A DNA stretch of 64,000 nt, taken from positions 14,405-78,404 of the forward strand of contig DASWHD010000135.1 in the NCBI GenBank assembly GCA_036393335.1. Reading direction: 5' to 3'. Position 1 is the stretch's first letter. The number at the start of each line of letters is the position of its first letter. Shown here piece by piece: positions 5,265-64,000 of the stretch. The notes under the pieces are model-generated. The model searched no databases. It worked only from the letters and a program-made list of their open reading frames with translations, and was not told the origin of the DNA. The DNA comes from a bacterium (GTDB lineage: Bacteria > CG2-30-53-67 > CG2-30-70-394). The position numbers and the translations under genes are program-made.

Positions 5265-5824
5265 GCGGCATTCCGCGCCCGGTGGTTATTGCCGCACTGG
5301 TGGCACTCGCCACCGCCGCAGTGGTGCGTAACGTGATCTTCTTCGGGGGCTACGGGAGCGACCGCGTGAGGCCGGCGAGCTCGACCGATGGTTCGCTGGC
5401 CGCGGTGGTTGTACCGAAGGTGGGGAGCGGGGTGGCGATACAGGGAGGGGCCGGGGGACCCCCGTCGGCTACGCCACCCGAGCGACGCCTCGCGGCGTTG
5501 CTGCGGAGTGCGCCAGTCGTGCCGGCGGATGCGGCATCGGCGCGGGACCCCTTCCACCTACCGCCACCCCCGCCACCGGCGCGACCCCAGGAGATCGCCA
5601 CCCCACCTAAACCGGGGACGCCCGAGTTGCGCATCCTCCTGACCTCGGAGAAGCGTCAGGTCGCGATGGTCGACGGGCACATCGTAGCGCCGGGCGATCG
5701 GGTCCGAGGCCGGCGGGTCGCCGAGATCACCGCCGAGGGCCTGCGCCTCGTTGGCAGGGGCGGGGAGACGCGGATTGAGTTGCCACTCCTGCCAACCGAT
5801 CTAGCGGACGATGAACAACGTTGA
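5261..5824 (+). CDS. PilP/GspC-like protein (N-terminal TM/lipo segment, Pro-rich linker, C-terminal PilP/HR-type beta domain)
   Basis: GTGA overlap start. The C-terminus (ILLTSEKRQVAMVDGHIVAPGDRVRGRRVAEITAEGLRLV) matches the PilP / GspC HR domain pattern. It sits directly upstream of the secretin. Confidence 0.5.
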   Translation: MSGIPRPVVIAALVALATAAVVRNVIFFGGYGSDRVRPASSTDGSLAAVVVPKVGSGVAIQGGAGGPPSATPPERRLAALLRSAPVVPADAASARDPFHLPPPPPPARPQEIATPPKPGTPELRILLTSEKRQVAMVDGHIVAPGDRVRGRRVAEITAEGLRLVGRGGETRIELPLLPTDLADDEQR

Positions 5825-7424
5825 AGCCATACGGGTGACATTTGTCACCCTCGCCGCCGGTGCGGTGCTGGCAGCATGCGCGCATGGCCCGGCCGGGCCG
5901 GCCCCGGCGCTTCCGGTGTTGGCGCCGCCGCACGTCGAACCGCAGGTATTGCAGGTGATCGACGTCGTCGCGGTCGAGCCAGAGCCCGGGCCGGAGCGGT
6001 TCACCCTGGCGGTGACGGACGCGGACCTCGCCGAGGTGCTGATGGTCCTGGCGAAGGATGCATCGTTCTCCGTCACCCTCGCCCCCGGCGTGCACGGGCG
6101 GGTGACCGGCGACCTCAAGGCGGTGACCCTCAGCGAGGCCCTGGACGCCCTGCTCGAGCCCTTGGGGTATGCCTACCGCATCGCGGGGGAACGGGTGCAC
6201 GTGTTCCCGCCCGGCGTGATGACCCGCACCTTCTATCTCGACTATCTGAACGCCAAGCGCGGCGGCAACACGACCCTGACCATCAGCGCCGGGGCGGGCG
6301 ACGGTGTGGGCGTGGGCGGACATGCGAGCTCTTCCATCAGCCGCAGCGTCGACGTCGACCTCTGGGACGAGGTGGCAACGGGGTTACAGACGGTGATCAC
6401 CTCGGGAGGGACGGCGGCCGGTGCTGTGACCCAGGTGGTGATCAATCGCCAGGCCGGCACCCTTCTGGTGACGGCGCACCCGCCGGTGATGGAGCGGGTC
6501 GCCGCGTACCTGGACGAGATCCAGCGCTCCATCGTTCGGCAGGTGATGATCGAGGCGAAGATCATCGAGGTGCAGCTCTCCGACGGCTTCAAGATGGGGG
6601 TGGACTGGGCGGCCATCCCGGGCATGGCCGGGGGGTTCACCGGCAACCTTACCGGTGGGATCGCCGACAGCCTCGGCCTGCGGCCCAGCCTCAGTCAGGA
6701 CCTCGGCGGTAGCAACACGGCGTTTCGCTTTGGCGCCACCTCCCACGACCTCACCCTTCTCCTGGATGCCATCGCTACCCAGGGACAGGTGCGGGTCCTG
6801 TCGAGCCCGCGTATCGCGGCGCTGAACAACCAGCCCGCAGTGATCAAGGTGGCACAGGAGCAGACCTTCTTCTCCGTAGACCGCCAGACCAACATCGATG
6901 CCGGGGTGCAGCAGGACAATTTCAGCGTGGACAAGGAGAAGTTTACCATTGGCATCGTGCTCGACATCCTGCCGCGCATCGCGGCGGACGGCACGGTGGT
7001 GATGAACGTCCACCCGAGCGTCACGGAGTTCGTCGCGGAGAAGGTGTTCCCACCCACTGCCAGGGGCGATCAGGTGCTCGCCAATGCCCCCATCCTCGAC
7101 GTGCGGGAGATGGACACCGTGGTCCGCGTGCACGATGGCGAGACTCTGGTGATCGCCGGCCTGATGCGCGAGGAGGATCACGAGCAGATCAGCGCCGTAC
7201 CAGTGCTGGGAGCGATCCCGTTTCTCGGCACCCTGTTTCGCAACACGGACCAGCAGCGCCGTAACTCGGAGCTGGTGATCTTCCTCACGCCGCACGTGAT
7301 CGACGAGGCGACCGACCTCGCGGCGGCGTCGCCGCTCAGCGAGCGGCGGTCGAGCTACCACCTGGGCGGCAAGGCGACGCGCTTCGGGGTGGAGGCGGAG
7401 ACCGAGCTGCGGGGGTGGCGATGA
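5811..7424 (+). CDS. Secretin (PilQ/GspD family), predicted lipoprotein
   Basis: Lipobox LAAC near the N-terminus; secretin_N-like repeats; conserved C-terminal secretin domain (LLDAIATQGQVRVLSSPRIAALNNQPAVIKV...LVIFLTPHVI). Confidence 0.85.
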   Translation: MNNVEAIRVTFVTLAAGAVLAACAHGPAGPAPALPVLAPPHVEPQVLQVIDVVAVEPEPGPERFTLAVTDADLAEVLMVLAKDASFSVTLAPGVHGRVTGDLKAVTLSEALDALLEPLGYAYRIAGERVHVFPPGVMTRTFYLDYLNAKRGGNTTLTISAGAGDGVGVGGHASSSISRSVDVDLWDEVATGLQTVITSGGTAAGAVTQVVINRQAGTLLVTAHPPVMERVAAYLDEIQRSIVRQVMIEAKIIEVQLSDGFKMGVDWAAIPGMAGGFTGNLTGGIADSLGLRPSLSQDLGGSNTAFRFGATSHDLTLLLDAIATQGQVRVLSSPRIAALNNQPAVIKVAQEQTFFSVDRQTNIDAGVQQDNFSVDKEKFTIGIVLDILPRIAADGTVVMNVHPSVTEFVAEKVFPPTARGDQVLANAPILDVREMDTVVRVHDGETLVIAGLMREEDHEQISAVPVLGAIPFLGTLFRNTDQQRRNSELVIFLTPHVIDEATDLAAASPLSERRSSYHLGGKATRFGVEAETELRGWR

Positions 7425-27593: not shown

Positions 27594-28217
27594 TTACCAG
27601 TACACCAGCAGTCGGCCGTTCTCCACCTTGTTCTCGAACTGTTTGAGCGGCCGTTTCCCTACCTTGATGCATTTGCCCGTGCAGATGTCGAACTCCCAGT
27701 GGTGCTTCGGGCAGGTGAGGGTGTTGCCGTCCAGCTCCAGGGGGATGTCGGTGGACTGGTGGGGGCAGTGGGAGTCAAAGACCAGGAAGCCATCGCCGTT
27801 GCGGTGGACGAGGAGCTTGCGGCCGTCGGCCTCGGTGCGCACCGTCGCGCCGGACGCGACGTCGCCGCCGGCGACCACGTCGTGCCACGCGGGCTTCGTG
27901 CCGAGCATGACCGGTTGGAACTCCGGGATCTCCATGTCGAGGATGATGTCGAAGGCCCAGACGATCTTCGCCAGGCCGAGGGCCGGGAAGGCGAACAGGA
28001 TCGCGTCGATCACCTCGTCGGCGGTCGCACCCTCGCGCAGGGCCCGCGGCAGGTACTGGCGCAGCCCGCCCTCGGTCTGGACCGCGATCTTGGTGATCAC
28101 CGAGATCAGGGCGGCGGTCTTCTTGTCCAGGTGGGTGGCCGACTTCTTGAGGAAGTCGAAGTAGGCGGTCATCGCCTCGGGGCGGGTCTGGATCAGGTAG
28201 TCGAGGGATTTGCTCAT
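27594..28217 (-). CDS. Fusion protein: carboxymuconolactone decarboxylase (AhpD-like) domain plus C-terminal Rieske [2Fe-2S] domain
   Basis: N-terminal CMD-like region (KKTAALISVITKIAV); C-terminal Rieske boxes CPHQ...(17 aa)...CPKHHW. The real start is MSKSLDYLIQ (207 aa); the upstream 360 aa of the ORF are Arg-rich junk. Confidence 0.6.
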   Translation of the reverse strand: MSKSLDYLIQTRPEAMTAYFDFLKKSATHLDKKTAALISVITKIAVQTEGGLRQYLPRALREGATADEVIDAILFAFPALGLAKIVWAFDIILDMEIPEFQPVMLGTKPAWHDVVAGGDVASGATVRTEADGRKLLVHRNGDGFLVFDSHCPHQSTDIPLELDGNTLTCPKHHWEFDICTGKCIKVGKRPLKQFENKVENGRLLVYW

Positions 28218-58502: not shown

Positions 58503-59255
58503 CTAGCGACGGCCGAGTAGCCGCAGGAGGCCATCGAGGATGGTGAACGGGTGGGGTGGGCAGCCCGGGACGAACAGGTCGACCGGCACCACTGCATCGG
58601 CCCCATTCAGCACCTCCGGATGGTCGATGAATGGTCCACCGGCGATGGCGCATGCGCCCACCGCGATCACGAGCTTGGGTGTGGGCACCGCGTCGTAGGT
58701 GAGACGCACGGCCTCGGCCATGTTGCCGGTCACGGGACCGGTGATGACCAGGGCATCGGCGTGGCGCGGTGAAGCGACCACCTGGATGCCAAACCGGCCG
58801 AGGTCGAAGCCGATGGTGCCCAGGACGTTGAAGTCCGCCTCGCACCCGTTGCACCCGCCGGCGCTCACCTCGCGGATGCGCAGGGCGCGGCCGTAGAGGG
58901 CGCGGATCTTGTCGGAAAGCGCGGTAGCGAGCGGCAAATCGTGGCCATCGGTGAGCAGGCCGTCCCGCGCCCGTGTCGCCAGCCGGTAATCCTGGGAGAA
59001 GACGATCGCCCCGTCCAGGCAGGCGTCGCTACAGGCGGTGCAGAAGAGGCAGCGCCCCAGGTCGATCCGCACGTCGCCGTCCAGCCGGATGGCGTCCGTA
59101 GGGCAGGCCGCCGCACACCGCTGGCAACCGTCCGGGCACTTTGTCGCGTCGACCACCGGCAGGCCGCGGAAACGGTCCGGGAGCAGTGGCTCCGCGCGCG
59201 GAAAGGCGCTGGTGCGATACCCCTGGCGGAGACGGGTGCCCAGGATTTTCAGCAT
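58503..59255 (-). CDS. Hydrogenase/complex-I-like small subunit (NuoB/HycG fold) fused to an N-terminal 2x[4Fe-4S] ferredoxin domain
   Basis: N-terminal ferredoxin motifs (CPDGCQRCAAACP, CLFCTACSDAC); NuoB/HycG cysteines (GGCNGCE ... GACAIAGG ... PGCPP). Confidence 0.8.
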   Translation of the reverse strand: MLKILGTRLRQGYRTSAFPRAEPLLPDRFRGLPVVDATKCPDGCQRCAAACPTDAIRLDGDVRIDLGRCLFCTACSDACLDGAIVFSQDYRLATRARDGLLTDGHDLPLATALSDKIRALYGRALRIREVSAGGCNGCEADFNVLGTIGFDLGRFGIQVVASPRHADALVITGPVTGNMAEAVRLTYDAVPTPKLVIAVGACAIAGGPFIDHPEVLNGADAVVPVDLFVPGCPPHPFTILDGLLRLLGRR

Positions 59256-59439
59256 GGTCGTAGGAACTGGGTGCGCCGTGCGCGTCGGGGTGCGAGATGG
59301 GGGATGAGGGTTGGGGGGATGGATGGCCGCTTCGCGGCCAGACGGTTTCTTTCGCGACGAGTCTTCAGCATCGTTTTACTCCGCCCGCAGAGCCATCCTT
59401 TCCCCCACTCCCCATCGCCCGACCCCCATCCCTCCCGCC

Positions 59440-60963
59440 TCACAGGTCGTGGCCGCAGTAGGAGAGGTTGAAGCTCTTGTTGCATAGCGGAAAGTCGGAG
59501 ATCTGCTGGTCACGCAGGGCCATGGCCAGGCCGGGCCAGTTGTGGAACGACGGATCGACGATCTTGTAACGAGCGAAGCACCCCGTGGCGTCGGTGATCG
59601 CTACGTGGCACACCTCACCGCGCCATCCCTCGACCAGGGATAGCGCGAGGCTGTTCGGGGCGAGGGGGAGCAAGGGGGTGCTCGGCGCATCATCCGGCAG
59701 CTCGTGGACCTGGCGGCGGATGAAGTCGGTGGAGGTACGGATCTCTTGCCACCGCACCCGCGCCCGCGCGTAGACATCGCCGGTCGATTCGCGGGCGGGC
59801 GTCACCGGTTTGTCCGCGTAGGCGCCGGTGGGGAACTCGGCGCGCACGTCCCGCGCCATGCCACACGCGCGCGCCGCCACGCCGACCAGGCCAAGGTCGG
59901 TACAGGTCTGGGCGGAGACGGCGCCCGTCCCTTCGAGCCGAGCCATCAGCGAGGGCTGATCCCACATCAGCCCGACGGCGTCGAGGGCGTCCGCCGTGGC
60001 CGCCGCCAGGACCGTGAGCAGCCGCTCCCCCCGCGGCTCGTCGAGGTCGAATCCCACGCCTCCGGGCCGGACCAGGCCACGGCCGAAGCGGCTACCACAG
60101 AGCAGGGCCGTGGCGTTCAGGTAGTCACCGCGGATGCGCCCGCAATAGGAGAGGGTCGGGAGGAAGCCCACGTCCCCGGCGATGGCGCCGAGGTCGCCGG
60201 TGTGGTTGGTGAGGCGCTCGAGCTCCAGGCCGATGGCACGGAGCCCCTGGGCGCGCGGCGATGGCTCGATGCCGGCGAGGGCCTCGACCACCTGGCAGTA
60301 GGCCATGGCGTGGCCCACGGTGGTGTCGCCCGCCACCGTCTCCATCTGATAGAGGGTGCACTTATCCGGGCCACCGACCAGACGCCGTTCCACCCCCCGG
60401 TGCTGGTAACCGAGGGCGATTTCCAGGTGGAAGACGGTCTCTCCGTGACACTGGAAGCGGAAGTGACCCGGCTCGATCACCCCGGCGTGGACCGGTCCCA
60501 CCGCGACCTCGTGCACGTCGCGCCCGGTGACTTGGAAGAAGTCGGTGACCGCCGGCGCGAGAGCGGTATCGGCCTGGCGGCCCCATGCATCCGCCCCGGT
60601 GCCGTAGCGGTGGTGGAAGCGCACCGGTTTGAGGAAAGGGTGGCCCTCCGGCACCACCCCCCATTGCTCTGCGATCTCGCGCTCGAATAGGTGGGCCTGG
60701 GGACAGTCCGGCGTCAGGGCGGGGTAGCGGTCGCCTACCGTGGTGCGCCACACGACGAGCCGTTGCTCACCCGGCGGTGCGACCAGGGCGAAGAGCTCGG
60801 TCACGTCCTGCGCCACGGGCCGGCCGAACAGGGCGATGAGTCGCCCCCCGGCGGCGATCGCCGCGGTGATCCGGGCGCGGAAGTCATCGATCGCGAGGCT
60901 CGGGATCGACGCCAGCGGGACGGCGCCGGTGTTGGCGATCGGGCAGAAGGCTGCGGCGGGCAA
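59440..60963 (-). CDS. Group-4 [NiFe]-hydrogenase large-subunit homologue (NuoC-like plus NuoD/HycE-like fusion), apparently lacking the Ni-binding cysteines
   Basis: GPVHAGVIEPGHFRF...LGYQHRGVER are HycE/NuoD hallmarks. TTG start just after the upstream stop. Where the L1 motif R-x-C-G-x-C-x-x-x-H is expected the sequence is TVAGDTTVGH (G and H retained, both Cys replaced). The C-terminus (...LCNKSFNLSYCGHDL) has no DPCxxCxxH/R motif and no cleavable extension. Confidence 0.7.
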   Translation of the reverse strand: MPAAAFCPIANTGAVPLASIPSLAIDDFRARITAAIAAGGRLIALFGRPVAQDVTELFALVAPPGEQRLVVWRTTVGDRYPALTPDCPQAHLFEREIAEQWGVVPEGHPFLKPVRFHHRYGTGADAWGRQADTALAPAVTDFFQVTGRDVHEVAVGPVHAGVIEPGHFRFQCHGETVFHLEIALGYQHRGVERRLVGGPDKCTLYQMETVAGDTTVGHAMAYCQVVEALAGIEPSPRAQGLRAIGLELERLTNHTGDLGAIAGDVGFLPTLSYCGRIRGDYLNATALLCGSRFGRGLVRPGGVGFDLDEPRGERLLTVLAAATADALDAVGLMWDQPSLMARLEGTGAVSAQTCTDLGLVGVAARACGMARDVRAEFPTGAYADKPVTPARESTGDVYARARVRWQEIRTSTDFIRRQVHELPDDAPSTPLLPLAPNSLALSLVEGWRGEVCHVAITDATGCFARYKIVDPSFHNWPGLAMALRDQQISDFPLCNKSFNLSYCGHDL

Positions 60964-60965
60964 GG

Positions 60966-62432
60966 CTAGTTCCCCCCCAGGGTTGCCGCGGTGGTGAAGA
61001 TCCGGGTGAGGGCCCCGGGGACGTAGAGGCCGAGGACAGCGGTGGCCAGCAGCAGCACCAGGGGCGGCGTGACGCTCCACACCGTCTCCCGCTGCCCCGC
61101 GGCCGTCGGGTGGGCCGACGCCCCCTGGGCCATACGCAGGGCCGTGGCGGTCATGCCGATGAACACCATGGCCAGGGCCACGAGCATGGCGACGCCGATG
61201 GCGGTGGCGCCGCCGTCGAAGGTCGCCTTGAGGATGGCGAGCTTGCTGATGAACACCCCGAACGGCGGCAGGCCGGTGATCGCCAGGACCCCGGCCACCC
61301 ACAAGGCGCCGGAGACGGGCATCTCATCGAGCACCCCACGCACCTGGTCCGTGGACTTGGTCTGGAAGCGGGTGAGGATGTTCCCGGCCACCAGGAAGAG
61401 CGCCGCCTTGGTCAGGGAGTGGTTGACCGCGTGCAGGAAGGCACCGGAGATCCCGGCGCCGCCGACGCCGATGCCGATGGCCAGCAGCCCCATGTGCTCC
61501 ACGGAGGAGTAGGCGAGCATGCGCTTGAAGTCGGCCTGGCGGACGAGAAAGATCGCCGCAATCCCCAGGGAGAGGAGGCCGAGGAGGATCAGCAGATCAC
61601 CGGCGAACTCTCGGTCCCCCGCGGCAGCGAGCACCAGGTAGCCGCGCCAGATGCCGAGGAAGGCGCAATTGAGCAGGGCGCCGGAGAGCAGTGCGGACAC
61701 CACCGACGGCGCCTCGCTGTGCGCATCCGGTAGCCAGGTGTGCATCGGCGCCAGCCCCATCTTGGTGCCGTAGCCCACGAGCAGGAAGATGAAGCCGGCG
61801 CGCAGCCACGGCCGGGAGAGATCCGCCGCATGGGCGGCGAGGGCGGGGACCAGTAGCGGCACGCCGTCCAGGGTCTGGCTGGCGATCGAGAAGGCATAGT
61901 TGCCCAGCAGGGCGAGGGCGATCCCGACCGAGCAGACGATGACGTACTTCCAGAGGGCCTCCAGCGAACGGCGGTGGCGGTGAAAAAAGATCAGCGGCGC
62001 GCTGGCCAGGGTGGTCGCCTCGATCGCCACCCACAGGAGGCCCAGGTGCTGGGCCATGGCGACGACGCTCATCGCCGCCAAGAACAGGGCCATGGCGCCG
62101 ACGAACCGGGCATCCGGGGCGTTGGCGAAGGTGAACCGCTCCTGAAAGTCCGGCCGCACGCCGGTCTGGGCCTCCTGCCGCAGGTAGCCCACCGAGTAGA
62201 CGGCGCAGGCGAGAAACAGAGTGGAGGTGAGGGTGAGGACCAGGCGGCCGACCGGGTCGAGGGCGATCCAGCCGTCCAGCAAGGCGGCGGGCGGCCGCCG
62301 CCACACGGCACCGGTGAGGGCCGCGTGGATCACCGCCGTGAGCAGGAGCAATGCCCGCTGCTGCGTCGCAGAGTGGAGGATGAAGGCGAGCAGTCCCGCC
62401 AGGACCGGCACCAGGAGGATCGCGAGGAGCAT
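60966..62432 (-). CDS. NuoN/NuoM/HyfF-like antiporter-type membrane subunit
   Basis: 488 aa; ~14 TM segments; conserved MGLAPMHTWLPDAH motif of complex-I antiporter-like subunits. Confidence 0.85.
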   Translation of the reverse strand: MLLAILLVPVLAGLLAFILHSATQQRALLLLTAVIHAALTGAVWRRPPAALLDGWIALDPVGRLVLTLTSTLFLACAVYSVGYLRQEAQTGVRPDFQERFTFANAPDARFVGAMALFLAAMSVVAMAQHLGLLWVAIEATTLASAPLIFFHRHRRSLEALWKYVIVCSVGIALALLGNYAFSIASQTLDGVPLLVPALAAHAADLSRPWLRAGFIFLLVGYGTKMGLAPMHTWLPDAHSEAPSVVSALLSGALLNCAFLGIWRGYLVLAAAGDREFAGDLLILLGLLSLGIAAIFLVRQADFKRMLAYSSVEHMGLLAIGIGVGGAGISGAFLHAVNHSLTKAALFLVAGNILTRFQTKSTDQVRGVLDEMPVSGALWVAGVLAITGLPPFGVFISKLAILKATFDGGATAIGVAMLVALAMVFIGMTATALRMAQGASAHPTAAGQRETVWSVTPPLVLLLATAVLGLYVPGALTRIFTTAATLGGN

Positions 62433-62566
62433 CGTGAGCCGTCAGCTTTCGGCAGAGTCTGTCGTTGGCCACAGAGGGCACGGAGCCGTTATTAAGAGCA
62501 CCCAAAAAAATCCTCTGTGTTCCCTGTGACCTCTGGGGCAGAAGGGGGAAAGCGATGCCCGAAAGG

Positions 62567-63214
62567 CTATCCGCGCAGCGACGTGAGCTGGTCGACGTCG
62601 ATGCGGTCGAACTCGCGGCGGATGTGGTAGACGAGGATGCCCATGATGAACAGGGCGACGAACAGGTCGAGGAGGATGCCGAGCTCGACCAGCAGATCCT
62701 CCTTGATCTTCAACCCTACGCTCAGCAGGAAAATGCCATTCTCCAGGACGATGTAACCCAGCACCTGCGACAGGGCCTTGCGGCGCGTGATCACCAGCAA
62801 CAAGCCGACGAACTGGGTGGAGAGGGCGACCGGCAGGACCAGGGGTGATTCCGGCGGCACCGGCAGGGGCAGACGCGACCAGAGCCAGAACGCATAACCG
62901 GTGAACAGCACGCCGAGGAACATCGCCGTGGAGTAGGAGATGGTCGGCGTGGCGGCGAGCCCCACGCCGGCGGCGCGCATGGCGCGAAACAAGAGCCACG
63001 GAAAGACTACGCCGCGCAACGCCAGGCCGAGGCCGGCGGTGGCGATCACCGATGGGCTGATGCCGTCACTGAAGTGGAGCAGGAAGGGCAGCAGGCCGAG
63101 CACGATTCCCTGTGCGGCAACGACCCGAATACTGACGCGGATGCGGCTCGTCCCGAGGAGCAGGAGGTCGGTGAACAACAGCAGGACCAAGAGGTGGGAG
63201 AGCATCGAGTCCAT
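62567..63214 (-). CDS. HyfE/NuoK-like small membrane subunit
   Basis: 215 aa; 6-7 TM segments; position between the NuoH-like and NuoN-like genes as in hyf/hyc-type operons. Confidence 0.7.
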   Translation of the reverse strand: MDSMLSHLLVLLLFTDLLLLGTSRIRVSIRVVAAQGIVLGLLPFLLHFSDGISPSVIATAGLGLALRGVVFPWLLFRAMRAAGVGLAATPTISYSTAMFLGVLFTGYAFWLWSRLPLPVPPESPLVLPVALSTQFVGLLLVITRRKALSQVLGYIVLENGIFLLSVGLKIKEDLLVELGILLDLFVALFIMGILVYHIRREFDRIDVDQLTSLRG

Positions 63215-63215
63215 G

Positions 63216-64000
63216 TCAGACGATCTGCAGGAGGAGGGCCATGGTCGCCACCGCGCCGGTGCCGAAGATGAGCTGGGGGATCTGCACCAGGCGCAGCCGT
63301 GCCATGGCAGACTCGACCAACCCCACCACCACGCCTACCGCCACGGTCCCGATCGCCCAGATTACGACCCCTGGCCAGCCGGTGACAGCCAAGGCGGAGA
63401 TCGCGATGCCGACCAGGAGCTGGATGAAGAGCCACAGCTTGAGGGCCTGGGCGTACTCGATGAAGGCGAGGTCCGGGCCCCCGTGGTCGAGCACCATCAC
63501 CTCGTGGATCATGGTCAGCTCCAGGTGGGTCGTGGGGTCATCGATCGGCATGCGGGCGTTCTCGATCAGGAGCACGACGAACAGGACAAACGCCAAGAGC
63601 GTGACGACCTCCGGGGACCGTTCCCACCCCACCGCCAGCCCGCCGCAGTAGATCAACGACAAGGAGTAGCCGCCGGCCACGAGGCCGAGGCTTACCAGCC
63701 CCAGCAGGAGCACCGGCTCCACCAGGGCCGAGTAGGCGGCCTCGCGGCTCGCCCCCATCGCCTCGAAGCTGGAGCCGACGTCCAGGGCCGCGAGGATGGT
63801 CGCAAGCCGGCCGAGAGCGAGCACGTACGCAAACAGCACTAGGTCCCCGGAGAAGTGCAGTGGCGCCGCCACCCCGGCCATCGGGACGATGGTAACGGCG
63901 ACGAGCACGGTGGCCAGACCAACGACCGGGCCGGCGCGAAACAGCCACGTGGTGGTCTGGCTGTAGACGGCACCCTTGCCGAGGAGCTTGCGCAGGTCGC
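63216..64000 (-). CDS. NuoH/HycD-like membrane subunit (5' part lies beyond the window edge)
   Basis: The open frame continues with no stop to position 64000 (…DLRKLLGKGAVYSQTTTWLFRAGPVVGLATV-LVAVTIV…); multi-TM; the ORF-track start at 63908 is a GTG inside the frame. Confidence 0.7.
   Translation of the reverse strand, partial: DLRKLLGKGAVYSQTTTWLFRAGPVVGLATVLVAVTIVPMAGVAAPLHFSGDLVLFAYVLALGRLATILAALDVGSSFEAMGASREAAYSALVEPVLLLGLVSLGLVAGGYSLSLIYCGGLAVGWERSPEVVTLLAFVLFVVLLIENARMPIDDPTTHLELTMIHEVMVLDHGGPDLAFIEYAQALKLWLFIQLLVGIAISALAVTGWPGVVIWAIGTVAVGVVVGLVESAMARLRLVQIPQLIFGTGAVATMALLLQIV

What the first reader, a model, noticed from the sequence alone, without database searches (positions are those of the whole stretch)
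58503..64000. Ehr-like (nickel-less) group-4 hydrogenase-related membrane complex
A five-gene minus-strand operon encodes NuoH-like, NuoK/HyfE-like, NuoN/HyfF-like, a NuoC+NuoD/HycE-like large subunit, and a HycG/NuoB-like small subunit fused to a 2x[4Fe-4S] ferredoxin. This is the architecture of group-4 energy-converting hydrogenases and formate hydrogenlyases. In the large subunit the invariant Ni-ligand motif R-x-C-G-x-C-x-x-x-H appears as TVAGDTTVGH (about 60310-60336): the spacing, Gly and His are kept but both cysteines are replaced. The C-terminus lacks the DPCxxCxxH/R motif and any protease-cleavable tail. No hyp maturation genes are visible in the window. This fits the poorly characterised 'energy-converting hydrogenase related' (Ehr) complexes, whose substrate is unknown, rather than a true hydrogenase. 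The small subunit keeps all four proximal-cluster cysteines.
Basis: partly seen in the sequence, partly recalled or inferred. Interest (0 to 1): 0.8.

Follow-up and report, generated by a model that had tools for sequence, protein, structure and literature searches.

The report
Nickel-less hydrogenase-like (Ehr) membrane complex
The region encodes a typical member of the widespread "Ehr" family, a membrane complex built like an energy-converting hydrogenase but without the nickel-binding cysteines. The family has been known since 2005, is clearly kept by selection, and still has no proven substrate.

Summary
The minus strand of 58503-64000 carries five genes of an operon that has six. The first gene, a NuoL/HyfB-like subunit, lies just beyond the window end, and the NuoH-like gene is cut there.

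Aligned with E. coli HycE, the four Ni-ligand cysteines are Ala211, Thr214, Ser501 and Gly504. The protein ends where mature HycE ends. The small subunit is a HycF/NuoI-like 2x[4Fe-4S] domain fused to a HycG/MbhJ-like domain, and all 12 cysteines are conserved.

[quoted passage not shown] The six-gene order recurs in nearly all of the 80 loci examined, across many phyla.

The altered pocket is not decay. dN/dS is 0.03-0.17, and an Ehr signature ([A/S]-G-D-[T/S], Asp470, SY-x-G-x-DL) is conserved. The same signature is present in the rhizobial Hyq "endo-hydrogenase".

Most likely function (inferred): a ferredoxin-linked, ion-translocating oxidoreductase. Its acceptor is unproven; quinone is my best guess.

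This is a new member of a known but uncharacterised family, of moderate interest.

The parts
63216..64000 (-). ehrB: NuoH/HycD-like membrane subunit, cut by the window end. About 42 N-terminal codons lie beyond 64000; the full protein is 303 aa.
   Evidence: No stop in frame up to 63998. Pfam NADHdh 4.6e-25. A full 303-aa gene is called on the near-identical contig L001. Conserved acidic residues E122, E129, E137, E189, D196, D197, E203, E209, D214 and E272 in 64 orthologues.
62567..63214 (-). ehrC: HyfE-like small membrane subunit (215 aa) with a NuoK-like C-terminal half.
   Evidence: NCBIfam PRK11492 'hydrogenase 4 membrane subunit' 2.2e-27, below its cut-off. Pfam Oxidored_q2 1.9e-7. E158 and E177 conserved.
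60966..62432 (-). ehrD: HyfF/NuoM-N-like antiporter-type subunit (488 aa).
   Evidence: Proton_antipo_M 4.6e-51; HyfF models to 8.4e-111, all below their equivalog cut-offs. E138 (TM5), K224 (TM7), K342 (TM11) and K397 (TM12) align with the E. coli NuoM channel residues. The TM8 lysine is N255, and is N/S/T across the family.
59440..60963 (-). ehrL: large subunit (507 aa, TTG start, TGA stop), a fused NuoC-like plus NuoD/HycE-like protein without Ni-ligand cysteines.
   Evidence: AlphaFold2 model pLDDT 95.1; best solved match is HycE 7z0s_E, TM 0.87. 58% identity to G. metallireducens EhrL.
60310..60342 (-). Former N-terminal Ni-ligand motif, now E208-T-V-A-G-D213-T-T-V-G-H218. The Cys positions are A211 and T214.
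   Evidence: Alignment to HycE RVCGICGFAH. E208, G212, D213 and G217 are invariant and H218 is conserved in 119 of 120 close homologues. Asp213 is present in 99 of 111 full-length cluster representatives.
59554..59556 (-). Asp470 codon, a second Ehr-specific acidic residue (motif V-D-P-S-F).
   Evidence: Asp in 92% of Ehr-type representatives, Ser in all four cysteine-bearing sister sequences. Also Asp in Rhizobium HyqG.
59443..59496 (-). C-terminal motif D-F-P-L-C494-N-K-S-F-N-L-S501-Y-C503-G504-H-D-L507, then stop. The Ni-ligand positions are S501 and G504, and there is no extension.
   Evidence: Alignment to HycE ...LDPCYSCTDR. Nearly invariant in 120 close homologues. In the wider family C494, C503 and H505 vary.
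59256..59439 (-). 184-nt spacer between ehrL and ehrS with G-rich and C-rich arms. In other loci this spacer is about 10-20 nt.
   Evidence: Sequence. The predicted hairpin is not better than shuffles (z -1.19).
58950..59255 (-). ehrS N-terminal domain (residues 1-102): HycF/NuoI-like 2x[4Fe-4S] ferredoxin fold with cysteines 40, 44, 47, 51, 69, 72, 75 and 79.
   Evidence: NCBIfam PRK12387 'formate hydrogenlyase complex iron-sulfur subunit' 1.2e-18. PDB HycF 7z0s_F 1.7e-12 and MbhN 8e-11. Cysteines conserved in at least 62 of 68 aligned sequences.
58503..58898 (-). ehrS C-terminal domain (residues 120-250): HycG/MbhJ/NuoB-like, with proximal-cluster cysteines 135, 138, 202 and 232, followed by the stop codon.
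   Evidence: MbhJ 2e-35, HycG 7.5e-30. The motif is the hydrogenase-type G-G-C-N-G-C-E, not the tandem CC of complex I. Conservation.

Best explanation
The locus is the 3' five-sixths of an ehrABCDLS operon. It encodes an Ehr (Ech-hydrogenase-related) complex.

Shown:
- It has a hydrogenase-like peripheral arm and a membrane arm. The peripheral arm is EhrL plus EhrS; EhrS carries three [4Fe-4S] clusters.
- The membrane arm has one NuoH-like subunit, one HyfE-like subunit and two antiporter-like subunits.
- The NiFe-binding cysteines are gone. They are replaced by a conserved polar, acidic pocket: A/S-G-D-T/S, Asp470, Ser501 and Gly504.
- The genes are under purifying selection.

Inferred:
- The complex is still a redox enzyme. 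Electrons pass between a soluble low-potential carrier, most likely ferredoxin, and the rebuilt pocket at the EhrL/EhrS/EhrB interface. The carrier would dock on the HycF/NuoI-like domain, and the electrons would travel through the three clusters.
- This reaction is coupled to H+ or Na+ movement through EhrB/C, EhrD and EhrA. It may run in reverse, using the membrane potential to make reduced ferredoxin.
- My best guess for the partner at the pocket is a membrane quinone, making it a ferredoxin:menaquinone oxidoreductase.

Probabilities:
- member of the Ehr family: about 0.95;
- ferredoxin-linked, ion-coupled redox complex: about 0.7;
- quinone as the acceptor: about 0.35.
For: [quoted passage not shown] The six-gene order is conserved in nearly all of the 80 loci from many phyla.
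- Ni ligands replaced.
- Still functional: dN/dS of 0.03-0.17 in 15 pairs. The pocket residues are invariant or nearly so among 120 homologues. Ehr-specific D213 and D470 set it apart from the cysteine-bearing sisters.
- Redox wire: 12 cysteines conserved. The N-terminal domain matches HycF/MbhN/NuoI and the C-terminal domain matches MbhJ/HycG.
- Ion path: EhrA keeps E143, K224, K255, H344, H348 and K352, and its best match is HycC at 2.4e-70. EhrD keeps E138, K224, K342 and K397. EhrB keeps many acidic residues.
- No partner dehydrogenase: among about 290 flanking ORFs of 80 loci, the only recurrent neighbour is a regulator. This fits a diffusible donor such as ferredoxin.
- Quinone: the Hyq relatives share the pocket signature but have a plain 177-aa NuoB-like subunit with no soluble-facing clusters. 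One of their substrates should therefore be membrane-borne (PMC3357923).
Against: - No biochemical datum exists for any Ehr complex in the papers I could search.
- The complex I quinone ligands are absent. Nqo4 Tyr87 aligns with Gly212 and His38 with Ile163. The beta1-beta2 loop is hydrogenase-like, I-E-P-G-H-F-R-F.
- Riflemargulisbacteria that carry Ehr are reported to lack quinone biosynthesis (PMC6349859).
- EhrD lacks the TM8 lysine, so one of the two antiporter-type channels may not be canonical.
- Ferredoxin as the partner rests only on analogy with Ech/MBH/FHL.
- I had no coordinates of the model, so pocket geometry was not measured.
Confidence: 0.8

Rival explanations
1. It is a true group-4 [NiFe] hydrogenase (Hyf, Ech or formate hydrogenlyase type) that evolves or consumes H2 at a Ni-Fe centre.
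For: - The best solved relatives of every subunit are FHL and MBH subunits: HycE 2.7e-44, HycC 2.4e-70, MbhJ 2e-35.
- Public records name it 'hydrogenase' or 'Ni,Fe-hydrogenase III large subunit'.
Against: - All four Ni-ligand positions are non-cysteine: A211, T214, S501 and G504.
- This holds across the close homologues and nearly all cluster representatives.
- No hyp genes or endopeptidase gene were found in the window or in the flanks of 80 loci.
- All NCBIfam hydrogenase equivalog scores are far below their cut-offs.
Confidence: 0.02
2. It is a decayed, non-functional remnant of a hydrogenase, as a 2026 Geobacter paper assumes.
For: - The catalytic metal ligands are lost.
- PMC13194489 states that Ehr 'was already nonfunctional'.
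Against: - dN/dS is 0.03-0.17.
- All six reading frames are intact, and the gene order is conserved across at least ten phyla.
- The replaced pocket is itself nearly invariant.
- All Ehr subunits were detected, and were more abundant on formate, in G. sulfurreducens proteomes (PMC7894505).
Confidence: 0.02
3. It cycles H2 without the canonical Ni-Cys4 site, as claimed for the related Hyq 'endo-hydrogenase' of Azorhizobium. Here it would be a ferredoxin-dependent, unconventional hydrogenase.
For: - Rhizobium HyqG shares the pocket signature: S-G-D-S, R-D-P-S and CNKSFNCSYSGHDL, at 37% identity.
- Deletion of hyq in A. caulinodans was reported to impair recycling of nitrogenase H2 and to abolish high-rate H2 evolution at below 1 uM O2 (PMC2650096 and PMC3357923).
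- The hydrogenase-type beta1-beta2 loop with Glu164 is retained.
Against: - The Hyq evidence is in vivo and genetic only. The authors themselves call a Ni,Fe site 'uncertain, if not unlikely'.
- No chemistry is known by which an Asp/Ser/Thr pocket would activate H2.
- The window protein is only 37% identical to HyqG and sits in a different architecture: a fused ferredoxin domain and no hyqR.
Confidence: 0.07
4. It reduces a non-quinone acceptor at the rebuilt pocket, for example sulfane sulfur as in the archaeal MBS complex, or another small molecule.
For: - MBS shows that a hydrogenase-derived pocket can take a new substrate (my own knowledge).
- In the window's subclade C494, C503 and H505 are nearly invariant next to the pocket.
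- Ehr occurs in lineages reported to lack quinones.
Against: - C494, C503 and H505 are not conserved family-wide: 76, 58 and 44 of 111.
- The match to MbsL is weak, 3.8e-12.
- The gene set differs from MBS.
- No sulfur-metabolism genes recur in the flanks.
Confidence: 0.2

Closest known systems
Ehr (Ech-hydrogenase-related) complex of Geobacter (GSU0739-0745; EhrL of G. metallireducens, UniRef Q39SF8)
   Same: - Same six subunit types in the same order.
- 58% full-length identity of the large subunit.
- Same E-T-x-A-G-D-T-T-x-G-H motif and DFPLCNKSFNLSYCG-x-DL end.
- Same fused ferredoxin/NuoB-like small subunit.
   Different: - Geobacteraceae loci carry two EhrA-type genes; the window lineage has one.
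- The residue after C-G is His here and Phe in Geobacter.
- The window lacks the adjacent HTH_17-PTS_EIIA_2 regulator found in many loci.
Hyq 'endo-hydrogenase' of Azorhizobium, Rhizobium and Azospirillum (hyqRBCEFGI)
   Same: - The membrane subunit and large subunit types occur in the same order.
- The large subunit lacks both CxxC pairs and has S-G-D-S, R-D-P-S and ...CNKSFNCSYSGHDL.
   Different: - Only 37% identity.
- HyqI is a plain 177-aa NuoB-like protein without the 2x[4Fe-4S] domain.
- It has a different regulator, a 104-aa HTH protein, and nif-regulon control in A. caulinodans.
- It is the only relative with functional claims (H2 uptake and evolution), and these rest on in vivo genetic evidence.
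E. coli formate hydrogenlyase / hydrogenase-3 and -4 (HycCDEFG, Hyf), group 4a
   Same: - Best solved structural relative: HycE TM 0.87, HycC 2.4e-70, HycG 7.5e-30, HycF 1.7e-12.
- Fused NuoC+NuoD large subunit.
- CxxC-type small subunit.
   Different: - FHL has four Cys Ni ligands, a cleaved C-terminal tail and hyp/hycI maturation.
- It has a separate HycF and HycB, and an FdhF partner.
- None of these is present here.
Pyrococcus furiosus MBH and Ech-type ferredoxin-dependent hydrogenases
   Same: - Ferredoxin-facing NuoI-like clusters wired to a NuoB-like cluster and a NuoD-like subunit on an ion-translocating membrane arm.
- MbhJ is the best match of EhrS (2e-35), and MbhL matches at 1.3e-32.
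   Different: - MBH and Ech have a NiFe site and evolve H2.
- MBH has a 14-subunit Mrp-type module.
Respiratory complex I / NDH-1 (NuoB, C, D, H, I, K, L, M, N)
   Same: - Common ancestry and fold of all subunits.
- No NiFe site in the NuoD position.
   Different: - No Tyr87/His38 quinone ligands.
- CxxC instead of CC in the NuoB-like domain.
- Six genes only; no NuoA or NuoJ as such, and no NuoEFG.

Membership tests
Ehr (Ech-/energy-converting-hydrogenase-related complex) | Large subunit homologous to group-4 [NiFe] large subunits/NuoD but lacking the two CxxC Ni-ligand pairs | tested here: met
   A211, T214, S501 and G504 lie at the four ligand positions in the alignment to HycE. The same holds in the close homologues and in nearly all of 111 representatives.
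Ehr (Ech-/energy-converting-hydrogenase-related complex) | Orthology with the proteins for which the name was coined (Geobacter EhrL) | tested here: met
   58% identity over 504 aa to G. metallireducens ABB32816.1/Q39SF8. 55% to C. bemidjiense ACH40189.1. [quoted passage not shown]
Ehr (Ech-/energy-converting-hydrogenase-related complex) | Gene set and order ehrA (NuoL-like), B (NuoH-like), C (HyfE-like), D (NuoN/HyfF-like), L, S | tested here: met
   The full six-gene cluster is on the near-identical contig L001. The same order is found in nearly all of the 80 loci. ehrA itself lies outside the window.
Ehr (Ech-/energy-converting-hydrogenase-related complex) | Small subunit retains the proximal [4Fe-4S] ligands | tested here: met
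   C135, C138, C202 and C232 align with the MbhJ and HycG cysteines and are conserved in at least 62 of 68 aligned sequences.
Group 4 [NiFe] hydrogenase (HydDB 4a-4i) | Four cysteine ligands in the L1 (RxCGxCxxxH) and L2 (DPCxxCxxH/R) motifs | tested here: not met
Group 4 [NiFe] hydrogenase (HydDB 4a-4i) | Maturation machinery (hyp genes, endopeptidase) in the genome | tested here: inconclusive
   None was found in the window or in the flanks of 80 loci. Whole genomes were not available.
Group 4 [NiFe] hydrogenase (HydDB 4a-4i) | HydDB classifier assignment | not testable with these tools
   No HydDB access. As a proxy, all NCBIfam hydrogenase equivalogs score far below their cut-offs.
Respiratory complex I (NDH-1) | NuoD quinone-site Tyr (Nqo4 Y87) and His (H38) | tested here: not met
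   Y87 aligns with G212 and H38 with I163 (alignment to 2fug_4).
Respiratory complex I (NDH-1) | NuoB tandem-cysteine (CCxxE) N2 motif and an 11-14 gene nuo operon | tested here: not met
   The motif is G-G-C-N-G-C-E. The operon has six genes.
Hyq endo-hydrogenase | Large subunit without CxxC pairs, with the S-G-D-S and ...NKSFNCSYSGHDL signature | tested here: met
   The signature is shared, at 37% identity over 434 aa. At that identity this is family-level kinship, not orthology.
Hyq endo-hydrogenase | Seven-gene hyqRBCEFGI cluster with a plain NuoB-like HyqI and hyqR | tested here: not met
   EhrS carries an extra 2x[4Fe-4S] domain (250 aa against 177 aa). There is no regulator gene next to ehrA in this lineage.
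MBS (membrane-bound sulfane reductase) | Close homology to MbsL and a 13-subunit Mrp-containing operon | tested here: not met
   MbsL 6u8y_L scores only 3.8e-12, far behind HycE and MbhL. The operon has six genes.

The most novel reading that the evidence does not exclude
The former NiFe pocket has been rebuilt into a new conserved active site. Its residues are two family-specific aspartates (D213, D470), Ser/Thr hydroxyls and, in this subclade, C494, C503 and H505. The site might bind a different metal or substrate. At the extreme, it would support the nickel-cysteine-independent H2 uptake and evolution that was claimed genetically for the related Hyq complex. The Ehr complex would then be a ferredoxin-driven hydrogenase of a chemically new kind.
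Probability: 0.07. Interest if true: 0.9.

Novelty: new member of a known kind. Interest (0 to 1): 0.35.

Why it matters
- Ehr complexes sit between energy-converting hydrogenases and complex I in evolution.
- They are encoded in hundreds of bacterial species. The scan hit its 600-match limit, with hits in Verrucomicrobiota, Planctomycetota, Geobacter, Acidobacteriota, Spirochaetota and others.
- Twenty years after they were named, they still have no known substrate.
- If they are ferredoxin:quinone pumps, a common route for low-potential electrons in soil and sediment bacteria is missing from metabolic models. Run in reverse, they would be a route for making reduced ferredoxin.
- This window adds no unique leverage, because it is a standard member. 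The family-wide comparison, however, shows that the complex is under selection and is not a relic.
- It also defines a pocket signature (G-D, Asp470, SY-x-G-x-DL) that is shared with Hyq and can be tested by mutagenesis.

Tried and rejected
- True NiFe hydrogenase: rejected on the ligand alignment.
- Relic gene: rejected on dN/dS and conservation.
- Selenocysteine read-through of the TGA stop of ehrL: the downstream frame is G-rich nonsense, and all homologues end at D-L.
- Partner enzyme in the neighbourhood (FDH, CODH, NuoEFG, hyp): none is recurrent in about 290 flanking ORFs of 80 loci.
- RNA element in the 184-nt ehrL-ehrS spacer or the 134-nt ehrC-ehrD spacer: folds are no better than shuffles, and there are no Rfam hits in the window.
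- Sigma-70 promoter and intrinsic terminator scans around the operon ends: nothing found.
- Linking Hyq to this family through the last homologue search failed, because only unnamed metagenomic hits were listed. A tblastn of the plasmid collection solved it.
- Taxonomy of the window organism: cluster look-ups gave only 'bacterium'. It remains unidentified: a flagellated diderm with 67% G+C.
- The founding papers (Coppi 2005; Marreiros 2013) are not held in the library. What I say of them rests on citing papers and on my own knowledge.
- One window protein (5811-7424) was not on record for a context look-up.

Full report
**What is in the sequence.** On the minus strand of 58503-64000 there are five tightly packed genes.
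- A 250-aa small subunit at 58503-59255.
- A 507-aa large subunit at 59440-60963. It starts at a TTG two bases after the stop of the preceding gene.
- A 488-aa antiporter-like subunit at 60966-62432.
- A 215-aa HyfE-like subunit at 62567-63214.
- A NuoH-like gene that starts beyond the window end. Its frame is open from 63216 to 63998.

Pfam and NCBIfam confirm each assignment with E-values from 1e-7 to 1e-111. Every hydrogenase or Nuo equivalog model scores far below its curated cut-off, so the proteins belong to none of the curated orthologous groups. Nearly identical metagenome contigs show the whole operon. A sixth gene, a 667-aa HyfB/NuoL-like subunit, precedes the NuoH-like gene, and a divergent glycosyltransferase gene lies upstream of it. 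L001 differs from the window at 13 of about 13,000 overlapping bases. The operon is therefore A-B-C-D-L-S, and the window holds the last five genes, the first of them truncated.

**The nickel site.** phmmer against all PDB chains gives E. coli HycE as the best relative of the large subunit (2.7e-44), followed by MbhL, Nqo4 and NuoCD.
- HycE R-V-C-G-I-C-G-F-A-H lies over T209-V-A-G-D-T-T-V-G-H218.
- HycE D-P-C-Y-S-C-T-D-R lies over N499-L-S-Y-C-G-H-D-L507.
- The four Ni ligands are therefore A211, T214, S501 and G504.
- The protein stops at the residue that aligns with the last residue of processed HycE.
The only nuance is that Cys503 and Cys494 sit nearby, out of register.
- Nqo4 Tyr87 aligns with Gly212 and His38 with Ile163, so the complex I quinone ligands are absent too.
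- An AlphaFold2 model built from 98 sequences is very confident (pLDDT 95.1). Its best solved match is HycE (TM 0.87), ahead of NuoCD. No Ehr structure appears in the PDB copy.

**The small subunit.**
- Residues 120-247 match MbhJ (2e-35) and HycG (7.5e-30), with the hydrogenase-type G-G-C-N-G-C-E motif rather than the complex I tandem CC.
- Residues 9-101 match HycF, MbhN and NuoI (NCBIfam PRK12387 1.2e-18).
- All twelve cysteines are conserved in at least 62 of 68 aligned sequences.
- The subunit should therefore carry three [4Fe-4S] clusters, from a cytoplasm-facing ferredoxin-like domain to the cluster next to the large subunit.

**The membrane arm.**
- EhrA is closest to HycC (2.4e-70) and MbhH. 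It keeps the TM5 Glu, the TM7 and TM8 Lys and the TM11 His/His/Lys residues, invariant or almost so in 55 orthologues.
- EhrD keeps E138, K224, K342 and a TM12 Lys/Glu. The TM8 lysine (NuoM K265) is Asn here and Asn/Ser/Thr throughout the family.
- EhrB keeps a dense set of acidic residues.
- This is what an ion-translocating module looks like, with one unusual channel.

**Is it Ehr?** Yes.
- A cluster look-up shows that the Geobacter relatives include G. metallireducens ABB32816.1 (UniRef Q39SF8) and C. bemidjiense ACH40189.1. [quoted passage not shown]
- The window protein is 58% and 55% identical to them over its full length, with the same motifs.
- Papers describe Ehr as group-4-related complexes without the CxxC motifs and of unknown function. 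They are reported in Geobacter, Desulfotomaculum, Margulisbacteria, Nitrospira and ammonia-oxidising archaea.
- One 2026 paper treats Ehr as non-functional.

**How common, and how conserved.**
- The homologue search saturated at 8000 hits.
- The scan of one genome per species hit its 600-match limit. Hits came from Verrucomicrobiota, Planctomycetota, Desulfuromonadia, Acidobacteriota, Spirochaetota, Gemmatimonadota, Omnitrophota, Chlamydiota and others.
- In 80 fetched loci the six-gene order is almost always kept. Some loci have two EhrA genes, as G. sulfurreducens does.
- Among 120 close homologues, E208, G212, D213 and G217 are invariant, H218 is kept in 119, and the last 18 residues are essentially invariant.
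- In an exhaustive search of 1.84 billion cluster representatives, 885 proteins score below 1e-30.
- Of 111 full-length top hits, 99 have Asp at position 213, and the end reads N-K-S-F-N-L-S-Y-[C/S/A]-G-x-D-L. C494, C503 and H505 vary.
- Only four hits, at 36-39% identity, have C-G-x-C plus L-C-Y-x-C-x-D-R/L. One of them is from an anammox planctomycete. This agrees with the note that a few 'Ehr' members, such as the D. ruminis protein, may be real hydrogenases.
- The positions that separate Ehr from these sisters are D213, D470, S501, G504 and G185.
- dN/dS between 15 moderately diverged pairs is 0.03-0.17. The pocket has been rebuilt, not lost.

**Context.**
- Clustering all ORFs of the 80 loci, and scanning about 290 flanking ORFs against Pfam, shows no recurrent redox partner and no hyp genes.
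- The only recurrent neighbour, in 41 of 80 loci, is a protein of about 235 aa with an HTH_17 domain and a PTS EIIA-2 domain. It abuts ehrA on the same strand.
- About ten loci have a TGTCCA-N4-TGTCCA direct repeat 40-50 nt upstream of this gene.
- The gene is absent from the window and from L001.
- The rest of the window is housekeeping: secretin/T2SS-type genes, flagella, BamA-LpxD-FabZ-LpxA, RND and MMPL transporters, dxr.

**The Hyq link.**
- A review lists 'hyq' beside Ehr as a group-4 subtype without canonical ligands.
- The A. caulinodans papers describe a seven-gene hyqRBCEFGI operon. Its 504-aa HyqG lacks both CxxC pairs but conserves Cys491 and Cys497.
- A tblastn of the plasmid collection found such an operon on Rhizobium ruizarguesonis pTA1_4.
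- Its 504-aa large subunit has R-T-S-G-D-S-T-V-A-Y, R-D-P-S-W and ...C491-N-K-S-F-N-C497-S-Y-S-G-H-D-L. It is 37% identical to the window protein.
- Hyq therefore carries the same pocket signature and belongs to the same wider family.
- It differs in having a plain 177-aa NuoB-like subunit and a small HTH regulator.
- Hyq is the only relative with functional claims. Deleting it impaired recycling of nitrogenase H2 and abolished high-rate H2 evolution at very low O2. The authors themselves doubt that a Ni,Fe site exists.

**Mechanism.**
- Shown: the subunit set, the intact cluster ligands, the intact charged residues of the membrane arm, the replaced and conserved pocket, and purifying selection.
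- Inferred: a soluble low-potential carrier, most likely ferredoxin, exchanges electrons with the HycF-like domain, as in Ech, MBH and FHL. The three clusters carry them to the pocket at the L/S/B interface, and the reaction drives H+ or Na+ movement, or is driven by it.
- I favour a membrane quinone as the partner, at about 0.35. Hyq has no soluble-facing clusters, so at least one of its substrates should be membrane-borne, and most Ehr hosts are quinone-containing respirers (the latter from my own knowledge).
- Against this stand the missing complex I quinone ligands, the hydrogenase-like beta1-beta2 loop, and the report of Ehr in quinone-less Riflemargulisbacteria.
- The acidic, hydroxyl-rich pocket could instead bind a cation or another substrate. 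Unconventional H2 chemistry cannot be excluded, but it lacks any biochemical support.

**Verdict.** This is a standard member of a known, very widespread and still uncharacterised family. It is not a new kind of system. Interest is moderate. It comes from the open question about Ehr in general, not from anything special in this window.

Noticed in passing
L007-L086, just upstream of ehrA (e.g. L009:4227-4937); absent from the window and L001: A conserved gene of about 235 aa encodes an HTH_17 DNA-binding domain fused to a PTS EIIA-2 domain with the G-I-A-I-P-H motif. It abuts ehrA on the same strand in 41 of 80 loci. This suggests that ehr is controlled by a PTS-type phosphorelay.
   Followed up: partly
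about 40-50 nt upstream of that regulator gene in L013, L016, L018, L022, L047, L024, L030, L057, L007 and L009: There is a direct repeat TGTCCA-N4-TGTCCA, often ATGTCCAAAAATGTCCAA, which may be an operator. No such motif lies upstream of ehrA in L001. Significance was not tested.
   Followed up: partly
L089 (Rhizobium ruizarguesonis plasmid pTA1_4, 2364-9842): This is a hyqRBCEFGI-type operon. Its large subunit carries the same G-D / D-P-S / SY-x-G-H-D-L signature as Ehr, but its small subunit lacks the ferredoxin domain. It ties the disputed 'endo-hydrogenase' of diazotrophs to the Ehr family.
   Followed up: yes
window 61668-61670 (EhrD Asn255): The TM8 lysine is conserved in NuoM (K265) and also in the NdhD1, MbhH and MBS antiporter-like subunits aligned here. 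It is Asn in EhrD, and Asn/Ser/Thr in all 64 orthologues. EhrA keeps it.
   Followed up: partly
window 59256-59439: The ehrL-ehrS spacer is 184 nt here, against about 10-20 nt in most other loci. It has long G-rich and C-rich arms that can pair, but the fold is not better than shuffles (z -1.19).
   Followed up: yes
P0220, P0240, P0257, P0270 (relatives at 36-39% identity): These closest relatives keep all four Ni-ligand cysteines (C-G-x-C ... L-C-Y-x-C-x-D-R/L) and also lack a C-terminal extension. One is from the anammox planctomycete Ca. Wujingus californicus. They mark the hydrogenase/Ehr boundary.
   Followed up: partly
window about 27594-28217 (minus strand; L088:13778-14401): A 207-aa protein combines a carboxymuconolactone-decarboxylase-like (CMD) domain with a Rieske [2Fe-2S] domain. 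It lies next to folate-pathway genes (FolD, FTCD_C). This is an unusual fusion.
   Followed up: no
L026, L060, L061, L068, L070, L084, next to the ehr cluster: A SulP/STAS-family anion transporter with an extra C-terminal domain lies beside the ehr genes in six loci. The link to ehr is unclear.
   Followed up: no
window 13.8-25 kb and 0-8.4 kb: The window carries a flagellar rod/ring/hook-associated gene cluster with flagellin, CsrA and FliW. It also carries a T2SS/type-IV-pilus-like ATPase, platform protein and secretin. The organism is therefore a motile diderm. Its taxonomy could not be resolved; NCBI labels it only 'bacterium'.
   Followed up: partly
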